Sequence record: MH051914
DNA: 64,000 nt
Source: Enterobacteria phage vB_EcoM_IME338
Direction: 5' to 3' (one strand)
A program made the position numbers and the translations under genes. Each line of letters starts with the position of its first letter. Positions within the stretch are counted from its first letter, which is position 1. The notes beneath the pieces were generated by a model. It was not told the origin of the DNA. It worked only from the letters and a program-made list of their open reading frames with translations, and did not search any database. This document shows, piece after piece, positions 5,721 through 6,000 of the stretch.

Positions 5721-5851
5721 CAGAAAACCGTTTACAGCAAAACTTAAACAATCTATTTCTCGGTAAAGAAAAGGCGAAGGTTCGATTCCTTCACTCGGCA
5801 GATGTCGAGTTGGTGTAATGGTAGCACTTAAGATGATAAACAACGGTCTGG
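5721..5851 (+). ncRNA. tRNA-like noncoding element: orphan T-arm plus D-loop-like segment, bounded by element-type termini
   Basis: Starts CAGAAAACCG, ends AACGGTCTGG (accgtt/aacggt complementary); contains gaagg-TTCGATT-ccttc T-arm (5776-5792) but no pairing acceptor 5' strand; agttggtgtaatggtagcac resembles a D-loop. Confidence 0.35.
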
Positions 5852-6000
5852 TAATTATCTTTGTAGATAAGTTATTAAGCTTACCTGTGAGTATGCGACC
5901 ACAAAGGGTGAAAGGGTAAATTCTAGATTTAAACCCAACAAGGCACATCGCTACAGACCTTAAGCAAGTCTGGGTAGCTTATCTACAAAGATAATTTAAT

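What the first reader, a model, noticed from the sequence alone, without database searches (positions are those of the whole stretch)
5721..6000. Orphan tRNA T-arm and D-loop-like segment in a 280-nt non-tRNA stretch
A canonical T-arm (gaagg-TTCGATT-ccttc, 5776-5792) is followed by an acceptor-like 3' strand but has no complementary 5' strand within 150 nt upstream. Downstream lies agttggtgtaatggtagcac (D-loop-like) and two near-identical hairpins ttatct-NNNN-agataa (5866-5881 and 5976-5992), each preceded by a GTCTGG motif. The segment 5721-5851 is bounded by termini of the repeat-element type. This could be a degenerate tRNA, a tRNA-like RNA of the Y-RNA kind, or an element-disrupted tRNA.
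Basis: seen in the sequence. Interest (0 to 1): 0.6.

Follow-up and report, generated by a model that had tools for sequence, protein, structure and literature searches.

The report
Phage Y RNA hidden among tRNAs
The "orphan T-arm" is the core of an unannotated, circularly permuted tRNA-like Y RNA that sits, with three shorter sister RNAs, in the tRNA array of a FelixO1-like phage just downstream of a Ro60-like protein gene, and it gives that anti-defence protein its missing RNA partner to test.

Summary
Positions 5719-5854 (+) are not a tRNA. They have the architecture of the bacterial Y RNA YrlA: a terminal helix made by the 5' and 3' ends, a small hairpin, a T arm (5776-5792), an acceptor stem closed by a loop (5793-5810), and a D arm (5813-5827).

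All four helices covary across related and distant phages. Three shorter RNAs (5159-5236, 5326-5390, 5632-5710) share the terminal helix and a UUNCAGCAA motif.

A 2024 preprint noted the Ro60-like fold of this gene's apparent counterpart in phage Bas63 and guessed that some tRNA genes might be Y RNAs. None was identified.

This is a new variant of a known kind. The tRNA-like module is YrlA's, but the protein-proximal motif and the partner protein family differ. Binding, expression and function are inferred, not shown.

The parts
3411..4826 (+). Gene for a 471-aa Ro60-like protein: helical-repeat ring plus C-terminal vWA domain with an intact DxSxS MIDAS motif
4845..4965 (+). Two tandem sigma-70-like promoter matches ahead of the tRNA/Y-RNA array (4845-4873 and 4936-4965)
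   Evidence: Consensus scan: TTGACA-17-TAATAT and TTGACA-18-TAAAGT, 10 of 12 each. These are consensus matches only.
5159..5236 (+). Short Y-like RNA E1: terminal helix plus UUACAGCAA, no tRNA-like module
   Evidence: Model R2 41.1 bits. Repeat families D11 and D15. The fold gives 3 bp, an AGA/G internal loop, then 7 bp. Orthologues in L001-L004.
5326..5390 (+). Short Y-like RNA E2
   Evidence: R2 34.8 bits. Same fold pattern. The outer helix changes TGC/GCA to TAC/GTA between orthologues.
5632..5710 (+). Short Y-like RNA E3
   Evidence: R2 29.8 bits. Same fold pattern. Nearly invariant in relatives.
5719..5854 (+). E4, the YrlA-like Y RNA that contains the finding
   Evidence: R1 145 bits and R2 109 bits. 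The minimum-free-energy fold shows a terminal helix closing a junction of hairpin, T arm, closed acceptor stem and D arm.
5719..5732 (+). 5' strand of the E4 terminal helix (UAC-AGA-AAACCGUU)
   Evidence: Pairs with 5842-5854. Covaries in model-fitted and de novo alignments and between paralogues.
5732..5740 (+). Conserved single-stranded motif UUACAGCAA; proposed protein-recognition element
   Evidence: Present in all four elements and in distant phages. Enriched 6- to 10-fold on the gene's strand within 400 nt of DUF2828 genes.
5756..5771 (+). Small hairpin UUUCU-CGGUAA-AGAAA: the 'V' arm of YrlA nomenclature, which the Rfam tRNA model aligns as an anticodon arm
   Evidence: Poorly conserved in Mordin and Mijalis.
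5776..5792 (+). T arm GAAGG-UUCGAUU-CCUUC
   Evidence: Invariant in Ounavirinae. 99.3% of cells paired, with compensatory changes, in 40 hits.
5793..5810 (+). Acceptor stem closed by a loop: ACUCGGC-AGAU-GUCGAGU
   Evidence: Three different complementary sequences occur in Ounavirinae. All 7 pairs show changes on both sides.
5811..5827 (+). U8 G9 plus D arm GUGU-AAUGGUA-GCAC, with A14, G18, G19 and A21 in place
   Evidence: 95.7% of cells paired, with compensatory changes.
5842..5854 (+). 3' strand of the E4 terminal helix (AACGGUCUGGUAA)
   Evidence: The 3' tail consensus YCUGRUAA is conserved in distant members.
5853..5996 (+).
   Evidence: 22-nt arms, 95% complementary. MFE -48.3 kcal/mol, z -6.0. 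Compensatory changes in relatives. No CAGCAA motif and no Rfam match.

Best explanation
Positions 5719-5854 encode a Y RNA of the YrlA type, in effect a circularly permuted tRNA.

Structure:
- Its 5' and 3' ends pair into a helix of 3 bp, an AGA/G internal loop, and 7 bp. A single-stranded UUACAGCAA motif follows the 5' strand.
- The interior folds into a T arm, an acceptor stem closed by a 4-nt loop, and a D arm. Spacing and elbow-forming nucleotides are those of tRNA.

Proposed mechanism (inferred):
- The RNA is transcribed with the tRNAs from the promoters at about 4845 and 4936, and is released by the same nucleases that cut the array.
- The Ro60-like ring protein encoded 893 nt upstream (3411-4826) binds the terminal helix and CAGCAA module of this RNA and of its three short paralogues.
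- The tRNA-like module of the long form then presents a tRNA elbow to a tRNA-recognising partner. Candidates are a host exoribonuclease such as PNPase, a tRNA repair or modification enzyme, or a tRNA-directed defence nuclease.
- The complex would act in RNA surveillance, repair or counter-defence during infection.

Shown here: the structure, its conservation, and its genomic linkage to the protein family.
Inferred: expression, processing, protein binding and the downstream effector.
For: 1. Architecture. The T arm (17 nt) is followed at once by the closed stem (18 nt), then 2 nt, then the D arm (15 nt). Salmonella YrlA has the same layout: TSL 33-49, AS 50-64, DSL 67-81 (10.1101/312249). U8, A14, G18, G19, A21, T54-T55-C56, A58 and G53:C61 are all present.

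2. Covariation.
- Ounavirinae orthologues carry three different complementary acceptor stems: ACTCGGC/GTCGAGT, ACCCTTC/GAAGGGT and ACACG/CGTGT.
- On 40 model hits, 93.1% of cells pair against 58.8% in shuffles and 33-43% when partners are slid. 23 of 24 pairs change on both sides.
- A de novo MAFFT plus RNAalifold run on 21 members recovers the terminal helix and the T arm with compensatory changes.

4. Linkage.
- In 79 loci around distant homologues, all 45 R2 hits at E<=0.1 are on the gene's strand. 37 of them do not overlap tRNA calls, in 26 loci, and many lie within 100 nt of the gene.
- The motif occurs at 1.87 per kb downstream and 0.98 per kb upstream within 400 nt, against 0.2-0.3 per kb background and 0.10 per kb on the other strand. 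It is present in 53 of 75 loci.
- Hits also occur in loci with no tRNAs at all, such as LeBron L085, L043, L048, L052 and L077.

5. Independent model. Rfam YrlA (RF02553) matches members of the same family in LeBron, Klebsiella phage FBKp34 and L082 at 29-40 bits, E down to 2e-5. That is as good as a bona fide TROVE-linked YrlA of phage Bxz1 at 32.5 bits.

6. Literature. Bas63 gp130 is a Felixounavirus protein described as Ro60-like and sited directly upstream of the tRNA genes, which matches this gene's position; I did not compare the two sequences. It counters the ppl defence, and the authors guessed that Y RNAs hide among the tRNA genes (10.1101/2024.10.10.617714).
Against: - No expression, RNA-end or binding data exist for these RNAs.
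- The window's own E4 gets no Rfam YrlA match at E<=10.
- The YrlA hallmark motif GNCGAAN0-1G is absent from the 5' module.
- The protein has no sequence-level match to TROVE or to Ro60 chains in the PDB. The likeness is in fold only.
- Single-sequence folding energy of E4 is unremarkable (z -1.4).
- Bas63 gp130 expressed alone from a plasmid or from T7 already counters ppl, so that phenotype does not need the phage Y RNAs.
- DUF2828 genes usually sit beside tRNA arrays, so part of the linkage could be to arrays rather than to the protein.
- The alignment used for the pair counts was fitted to the model.
Confidence: 0.75

Rival explanations
1. Inert remnant: a decayed product of a tandem tRNA duplication (3' part of copy 1 plus 5' part of copy 2), carried along in the array with no function.
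For: - The layout is exactly what such a junction would give.
- 4 of 17 distinct acceptor hairpins in the family still carry N-CCA right after the 7-nt strand (P about 1e-4). This points to an origin from tRNA junctions.
- The T arm and its upstream flank are 84% identical to the phage's tRNA-Ile.
Against: - The origin may well be a tRNA, but all helices are kept by compensatory changes across genera and in phages whose partner protein is only 40-50% identical.
- The flanking helix and CAGCAA module are conserved and shared with non-tRNA-like paralogues.
- The element is present in nearly all of about 250 Felixounavirus-like records at 95-99% identity.
Confidence: 0.04
2. Processing punctuation: the four elements are structured spacers that guide RNase P, RNase E or RNase III cleavage, or stabilise tRNA precursors, independently of the Ro60-like protein.
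For: - They sit between tRNAs with spacers of roughly 5-13 nt, like tRNA units.
- Most homologous genes lie next to tRNA arrays on the same strand.
- M. smegmatis YrlA is an RNase P substrate (PMC4201824).
Against: - Family members lie directly beside the DUF2828 gene in loci without any tRNA, such as LeBron, L043, L048, L052 and L077.
- A conserved single-stranded motif next to a helix is more typical of a protein-binding site than of a nuclease signal. This is inference.
- Most tRNA junctions in this same array have no such element.
Confidence: 0.08
3. Free-standing tRNA decoy: E4 acts alone as bait for a host tRNA-targeting toxin or a tRNA-sensing defence system, with no stable protein partner.
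For: - It has an intact tRNA elbow and acceptor helix but no anticodon loop.
- Phage tRNA arrays are thought to counter tRNA-directed defences (stated in 10.1101/2024.10.10.617714).
Against: - It does not explain the three short paralogues that lack the tRNA-like module but keep the helix and motif.
- It does not explain the tight same-strand adjacency to the Ro60-like gene in many lineages.
Confidence: 0.08
4. Small mobile element with terminal inverted repeats that inserted into, and split, a tRNA gene.
For: Four copies share 9-nt and 7-nt termini that are partly inverted repeats.
Against: - There are only four copies in 64 kb, all on the + strand and all inside the array.
- Each copy is syntenic in three genera.
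- Changes in the termini are of the RNA-helix kind, G-U wobbles and compensatory pairs.
- No tRNA halves flank the element.
Confidence: 0.02

Closest known systems
YrlA, the tRNA-like bacterial Y RNA (Chen et al. 2014, PMC4201824; Rfam RF02553; crystal structure described in 10.1101/312249)
   Same: - Ends pair into a helix, and the interior is V hairpin, T arm, loop-closed acceptor stem and D arm with tRNA spacing and elbow nucleotides.
- It is encoded within 4 kb of a Ro60-type ring protein and on the same strand.
- Relatives of E4 in LeBron, FBKp34 and L082 are matched by RF02553 at E about 1e-5.
   Different: - There is no GNCGAAN0-1G motif. Instead a UU(U/A)C(A/C)GCAA motif follows a short AGR...YCU helix.
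- The TROVE-linked YrlA of phage Bxz1 has GCCGAAG-type motifs, a long G+C-rich terminal stem and no CAGCAA.
- The partner protein is Pfam DUF2828, not TROVE.
- E4 itself does not reach RF02553 even at E 10.
- The RNA is embedded in a tRNA array.
YrlB of Salmonella, and Yrl1/Yrl2 of Thermus phage phiLo (PMC12135203)
   Same: These are short Y RNAs that keep the protein-binding module but lack the tRNA-like domain. They are encoded beside the long form or the Ro60 gene. E1-E3 look like this.
   Different: The motif differs (CGAA there, CAGCAA here). phiLo Ro60 is a recognisable TROVE protein whose binding was shown by EMSA and cryo-EM. Nothing has been shown for E1-E3.
Bas63 gp130 (PhageMaP preprint, 10.1101/2024.10.10.617714)
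   Same: - It is a Felixounavirus protein described as Ro60-like by structure and sited directly upstream of the tRNA genes. That is the position of gene 3411-4826 here. The two sequences were not compared.
- It counters the ppl defence system.
- The authors proposed that Y RNAs might be present.
   Different: They suggested that some annotated tRNA genes are Y RNAs and identified none. Here the Y RNAs are the unannotated spacers between tRNAs, not tRNA genes. gp130 works against ppl without them.
Mycobacterium smegmatis YrlA (PMC4201824)
   Same: It has a 7-bp acceptor stem like E4. There RNase P cuts the loop and CCA is added. Mooglevirus orthologues of E4 and three metagenomic members encode N-CCA in the loop at exactly that place.
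   Different: The window's E4 loop is AGAU, without CCA. Cleavage has not been tested.
Circularly permuted tRNA genes of Cyanidioschyzon merolae (recalled from memory, not checked here)
   Same: The 3' half (T arm, acceptor 3' strand) precedes the 5' half (acceptor 5' strand, D arm).
   Different: Those mature through a circular intermediate into ordinary decoding tRNAs. E4 has only a 6-nt-loop hairpin where an anticodon arm would be, and it has a conserved extra helix and motif.

Membership tests
YrlA Y RNA (Chen et al. 2014; Rfam RF02553) | tRNA-like module in the order T arm, loop-closed acceptor stem, D arm, with tRNA spacing | tested here: met
   17 nt + 18 nt + 2 nt + 15 nt at 5776-5827. 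Salmonella YrlA has the same layout, nt 33-81. A custom scan finds this pattern 30 times on the gene strand and once on the other.
YrlA Y RNA (Chen et al. 2014; Rfam RF02553) | Nucleotides that build the tRNA elbow (U8, A14, G18, G19, A21, T54, T55, C56, A58, G53:C61) | tested here: met
   All are present in E4 when read in tRNA numbering. Position 48 (C or A) does not give an A15:U48 Levitt pair.
YrlA Y RNA (Chen et al. 2014; Rfam RF02553) | 5' and 3' ends pair to form the helix that carries the protein-binding site | tested here: met
   The helix covaries in model-fitted and de novo alignments, and between paralogues.
YrlA Y RNA (Chen et al. 2014; Rfam RF02553) | GNCGAAN0-1G motif near the 5' end | tested here: not met
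   Absent from 5719-5755. The only GGCGAAG (5773-5779) overlaps the T stem and is not conserved in Mordin or SUSP1. Bxz1 YrlA does have it. UUNCAGCAA takes its place here.
YrlA Y RNA (Chen et al. 2014; Rfam RF02553) | Encoded within 4 kb of a Ro60 orthologue, on the same strand | tested here: met
   893 nt downstream of the stop of 3411-4826, same strand. The protein is Ro60-like by fold only.
YrlA Y RNA (Chen et al. 2014; Rfam RF02553) | Reaches the Rfam gathering score (69 bits) | tested here: not met
   No RF02553 match for E4 at E<=10. Family relatives score 29-40 bits. A genuine phage YrlA (Bxz1) also scores only 32.5 bits, so the model is narrow.
YrlA Y RNA (Chen et al. 2014; Rfam RF02553) | Bound by the Ro60 protein; carries pseudouridine 55 and dihydrouridine | not testable with these tools
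   Needs pull-down, EMSA and modification mapping.
Ro60 / TROVE protein family | Sequence match to Pfam TROVE (PF05731) and vWA_Ro60 (PF25045) | tested here: not met
   Only DUF2828 and DUF7788 match. A profile of 50 homologues finds no Ro60 chain in the PDB. Bxz1 gp220 matches both Pfam families.
Ro60 / TROVE protein family | Ring of helical repeats closed by a C-terminal vWA domain with a MIDAS site | tested here: met
Canonical tRNA | Cloverleaf with open acceptor ends and a 7-nt anticodon loop, detected by tRNA models | tested here: not met
   ARAGORN and Rfam tRNAs in the window and none here. The best tRNA match is 15.1 bits and truncated.
Permuted tRNA gene that matures to a decoding tRNA | Complete anticodon arm and a junction that can be rejoined | tested here: not met
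   The only candidate arm has a 6-nt loop, CGGUAA (5761-5766), and is not conserved in Mordin or Mijalis.
Small mobile element with inverted-repeat termini | Dispersed copies in both orientations, with presence/absence polymorphism | tested here: not met
   Four copies, all + strand, all in the array, syntenic in three genera.

The most novel reading that the evidence does not exclude
DUF2828 proteins and CAGCAA-type Y RNAs form a widespread, so far undescribed phage ribonucleoprotein.
- The protein is found in at least 709 phage records, spanning Ounavirinae, Straboviridae, Herelleviridae, Campylobacter phages and cluster L mycobacteriophages.
- It would be a diverged branch of the Ro60-Y RNA system with its own RNA recognition code.
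- It is usually wired into tRNA arrays. It would work in counter-defence or in tRNA surveillance and repair, using the permuted-tRNA module to recruit or bait a tRNA-recognising host factor.
- In members whose acceptor loop encodes N-CCA, RNase P cleavage would yield a nicked tRNA-like molecule with a genuine CCA end.
Probability: 0.35. Interest if true: 0.8.

Novelty: new variant of a known kind. Interest (0 to 1): 0.65.

Why it matters
- FelixO1-like phages are classic typing and therapy phages, yet public records leave this stretch blank or cover it with tiny 'hypothetical protein' ORFs.
- Identifying the RNAs turns a published guess, that Bas63 gp130 is a Ro60-like anti-defence protein which may use Y RNAs, into a direct experiment with defined RNAs, a defined motif and defined mutations.
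- It suggests that a large protein family listed as a domain of unknown function is an RNA-guided or RNA-tethered Ro60 relative with its own Y RNA class.
- It gives a covariance model and a motif that can annotate such RNAs in hundreds of phage genomes.
- It offers clear examples of Y RNAs arising from tRNA gene junctions.

Tried and rejected
- Standard tRNA: ARAGORN and Rfam find none here.
- Broken tRNA-Asp: the array lacks Asp, and relatives annotate tRNA-Asp under the match. But in Mordin, Mijalis, Sf15 and SUSP1 the intact tRNA-Asp lies upstream of E3, and E4 is still present.
- Rfam at E<=10 on 5300-6500 and on 5700-5870 gave no YrlA or Y RNA hit for E4. The weak 'Dicty Class I RNA' hits on E1 and E3 only reflect an end-to-end stem.
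- Protein-coding reading: a 76-aa ORF on the minus strand (5718-5948) and small + strand ORFs annotated in some records are contradicted by non-triplet indels and stem-wise compensatory changes.
- Sequence-level homology of the protein to Ro60: phmmer and a 50-sequence profile against PDB sequences found nothing. NCBIfam gave nothing useful.
- Two literature searches were uninformative. No paper found links DUF2828 to Y RNAs.
- The supplementary tables of Chen et al. 2014, listing their 22 phages, are not held. I therefore could not check whether any DUF2828-type phage was already in their list.
- Single-sequence folding statistics for E1-E4 are weak (z -1.4 to -1.7). The case rests on covariation, not on energy.
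- E5 (5853-5996) could not be assigned to any family.

Full report
**Context.** The window is a FelixO1-like phage (Felixounavirus). The 428 bases around the finding match about 250 phage records, most at 95-99% identity, and nearly all leave the stretch unannotated. A 22-gene tRNA array runs from 4992 to 8994 on the + strand. The finding lies in the 428-nt gap between tRNA-Tyr (ends 5572) and tRNA-Lys (starts 6001).

**Checking the observation.**
- No tRNA is called here. The Rfam tRNA model gives only a truncated 15-bit match.
The acceptor-like strand ACTCGGC (5793-5799) pairs with GTCGAGT (5804-5810), 4 nt downstream, so the acceptor stem is closed by a loop.
- The order is therefore T arm, closed acceptor stem, two bases (U8 G9), D arm. 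All of it is enclosed by a helix made from the two 'repeat termini'. This is a circularly permuted tRNA.
- The two 'hairpins' are at 5855-5870 and 5979-5994. They are the arms of one 22-bp long-range stem (5853-5874 with 5975-5996). That stem belongs to a second, separate structured element, E5. Its pairing is kept by compensatory changes in relatives that have lost the local palindromes.

**A family of four.**
- The same 5' module (NNC-AGA-AGACCNN-UUACAGCAA) and 3' module (NNGGUCU-G-GNN) bound three shorter elements at 5159-5236, 5326-5390 and 5632-5710.
- All four fold the same way: 3 bp, an AGA/G internal loop, then 7 bp.
- Both helices covary between paralogues. The outer helix reads GAC/GUC, UGC/GCA, AGC/GCU and UAC/GUA. 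The inner helix reads ACCAA/UUGGU or ACCGU/ACGGU.
- They also covary between orthologues, for example TGC/GCA against TAC/GTA.
- All four are syntenic in Felixounavirus, Mooglevirus and Suspvirus. Those relatives also keep an intact tRNA-Asp upstream, so E4 is not a broken tRNA-Asp.

**Structure is under selection.**
- Among five Ounavirinae orthologues the T and D arms are invariant. The closed acceptor stem has three unrelated but complementary sequences.
- I built a covariance model from these (R1) and a second from 40 hits (R2).
- On the 40-hit alignment, 93.1% of cells form standard pairs, against 58.8% in shuffles and 33-43% when partners are slid.
- 23 of 24 pairs change on both sides, in 244 cells against 69.5 expected.
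- That alignment is fitted to the model. I therefore also ran MAFFT plus RNAalifold on 21 members without any model. This recovered the 7-bp terminal helix (for example AU 10, GC 8, UA 2 at one pair) and the T arm.

**The neighbour is a Ro60-like protein.**
- ORF 3411-4826 ends 893 nt upstream of E4 on the same strand. It matches only Pfam DUF2828 and DUF7788 and PHROG 850 'RNA-binding protein'.
- An AlphaFold2 model from 50 homologues has pLDDT 89.6.
- The 12 best Foldseek hits in the PDB are all Ro60 proteins.
- The MIDAS DxSxS residues are invariant.
- There is no sequence-level match to TROVE or to Ro60 chains, so this is a fold-level relative.
- By tblastn it is 30-34% identical to the 'Ro-like RNA binding protein' of cluster L mycobacteriophages. 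It occurs in 709 phage records across many lineages.

**Linkage of RNA and protein across phages.** I fetched 80 metagenomic viral loci around homologues and four cultured phages.
- With R2, all 45 hits outside the window at E<=0.1 lie on the strand of the gene.
- Eight of these overlap tRNA calls and are probably tRNA or tRNA-junction matches. The other 37 fall in 26 loci, often within 100 nt of the gene's start or stop.
- Weak R1 hits up to E 10 were also all on that strand.
- A model-free count of the motif T[ATG]CAGCA[AGT] gives 1.87 per kb in the 400 nt downstream and 0.98 per kb in the 400 nt upstream on the gene's strand. Background is 0.2-0.3 per kb, and the opposite strand has 0.10 per kb. 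53 of 75 loci have the motif within 400 nt.
- The gene is usually next to a tRNA array. But hits also occur in loci with no tRNA at all, such as LeBron, L043, L048, L052 and L077.
- In LeBron the RNA fills the gap just after gp53.
- Many phages have several copies, some with and some without the tRNA-like module.

**Relation to known YrlA.**
- Chen et al. 2014 defined YrlA as a Y RNA with a GNCGAAN0-1G motif near the 5' end and V, T, AS and D stem-loops. It is encoded within 4 kb of a TROVE-annotated Ro60 on the same strand. They reported it in 254 bacteria and 22 phages (PMC4201824).
- Rfam holds this family as RF02553. It does not match E4 even at E 10.
- It does match R2-family members in LeBron (39.8 bits), FBKp34 (39.6) and L082 (38.9 and 28.7). 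That is as good as the TROVE-linked YrlA of phage Bxz1 (32.5 bits).
- Those Rfam alignments start just after the CAGCAA motif, so the shared part is the tRNA-like module.
- The protein-proximal module differs. Bxz1 has a long G+C-rich stem with GCCGAAG-type motifs and no CAGCAA. The DUF2828-linked RNAs have a short AGR...YCU helix, UUYC(A/C)GCAA and a YCUGRUAA tail.
- I therefore file E4 as YrlA-like in design but as a distinct variant, with a different partner family.

**Origin.** In 4 of 17 distinct acceptor hairpins of the family the loop begins N-CCA right after the 7-nt strand (P about 1e-4). These are Mordin/Mijalis GCCA, L082 ACCA and CCCA, and L053 GCCA. This fits descent from tRNA-tRNA junctions. 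It also leaves open RNase P cleavage and a CCA end, as shown for M. smegmatis YrlA. The window's loop is AGAU.

**Function.**
- A 2024 preprint showed that Bas63 gp130 counters the ppl defence system. gp130 is a Felixounavirus protein that is Ro60-like by structure and sits directly upstream of the tRNA genes. That position matches gene 3411-4826 here, though I did not compare the sequences.
[quoted passage not shown] It identified none.
- gp130 alone, from a plasmid or in T7, suffices against ppl. So the Y RNAs are not needed for that phenotype and may regulate or extend the protein's role.
- By analogy, I propose the following. The protein binds the helix and CAGCAA module, and the tRNA-like module of E4 engages a tRNA-recognising partner. 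This step is inferred.
- The analogies are the Rsr-Y RNA-PNPase complex, the phiLo Ro60-Yrl-PNPase complex (PMC12135203), and Ro60 genes next to RtcB, as in Listeria phage P100.

**Verdict.** The Y-RNA reading is right, and the tRNA-remnant and mobile-element readings are wrong. The kind (tRNA-like Y RNA beside a Ro60-type protein) is known, including in phages. The instance, its short paralogues, the CAGCAA recognition module and the link to the DUF2828 family appear unreported in the literature I could search.

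Noticed in passing
window 5853-5996: E5 is a separate structured element of about 145 nt with a 22-bp terminal stem (MFE -48.3 kcal/mol, z -6.0) and compensatory changes in Mooglevirus and Suspvirus. It has no CAGCAA motif and no Rfam match. Some Felixounaviruses match only the first 294 nt of the 428-nt query (up to about window 5866), so E5 appears to be absent or different there. It might be an RNase III site or another small RNA.
   Followed up: partly
window 6702-6784: Possible non-canonical tRNA-Trp(CCA). 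It has acceptor GTGGGAC/GTCCCAT followed by G and CCA, anticodon stem-loop ACGGC-TTCCAAC-ACCGT, and a T arm at 6757-6773. Its D region is 24 nt. ARAGORN and Rfam do not call it, and the array otherwise lacks Trp.
   Followed up: no
window 39987-40270 (-) and 56675-56999 (+): Two group I introns reach the Rfam gathering score (62.2 and 55.9 bits).
   Followed up: no
L086 6003-6116 (Klebsiella phage vB_KpM_FBKp34): An annotated 114-nt 'tRNA-Asp' (Rfam tRNA 47.7 bits over 111 nt) contains a UUUACAGCA motif and overlaps a weak Y-RNA model hit. It may be a tRNA fused with, or interrupted by, a Y-like module. A clear YrlA-like RNA lies at 5682-5817, between the DUF2828 gene and the array.
   Followed up: partly
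L088 (Listeria phage P100) 3959-8021: The DUF2828 gene lies about 1.3 kb upstream of an RtcB-type 'tRNA splicing ligase' on the same strand. A short CAGCAA-type element lies at 3702-3767, just before the gene. This echoes the rsr-yrlBA-rtcBA operon of Salmonella.
   Followed up: no
window 5578-5631 and 7884-7912: Recurrent hairpin-like motif containing TTCTTACGAG (CTTAAAGGGTTCTTACGAGTATTCTTTAAAG and CTAAGGATTCTTACGAGAGTCCTTAAATG) in two spacers of the tRNA array. Its role is unknown.
   Followed up: no
L089 8388-8625 (Escherichia phage vB_EcoM_H12) and other records: Public annotations place 33-49-aa 'hypothetical protein' ORFs over the E4/E5 region. These are very likely spurious calls over non-coding RNA.
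   Followed up: partly
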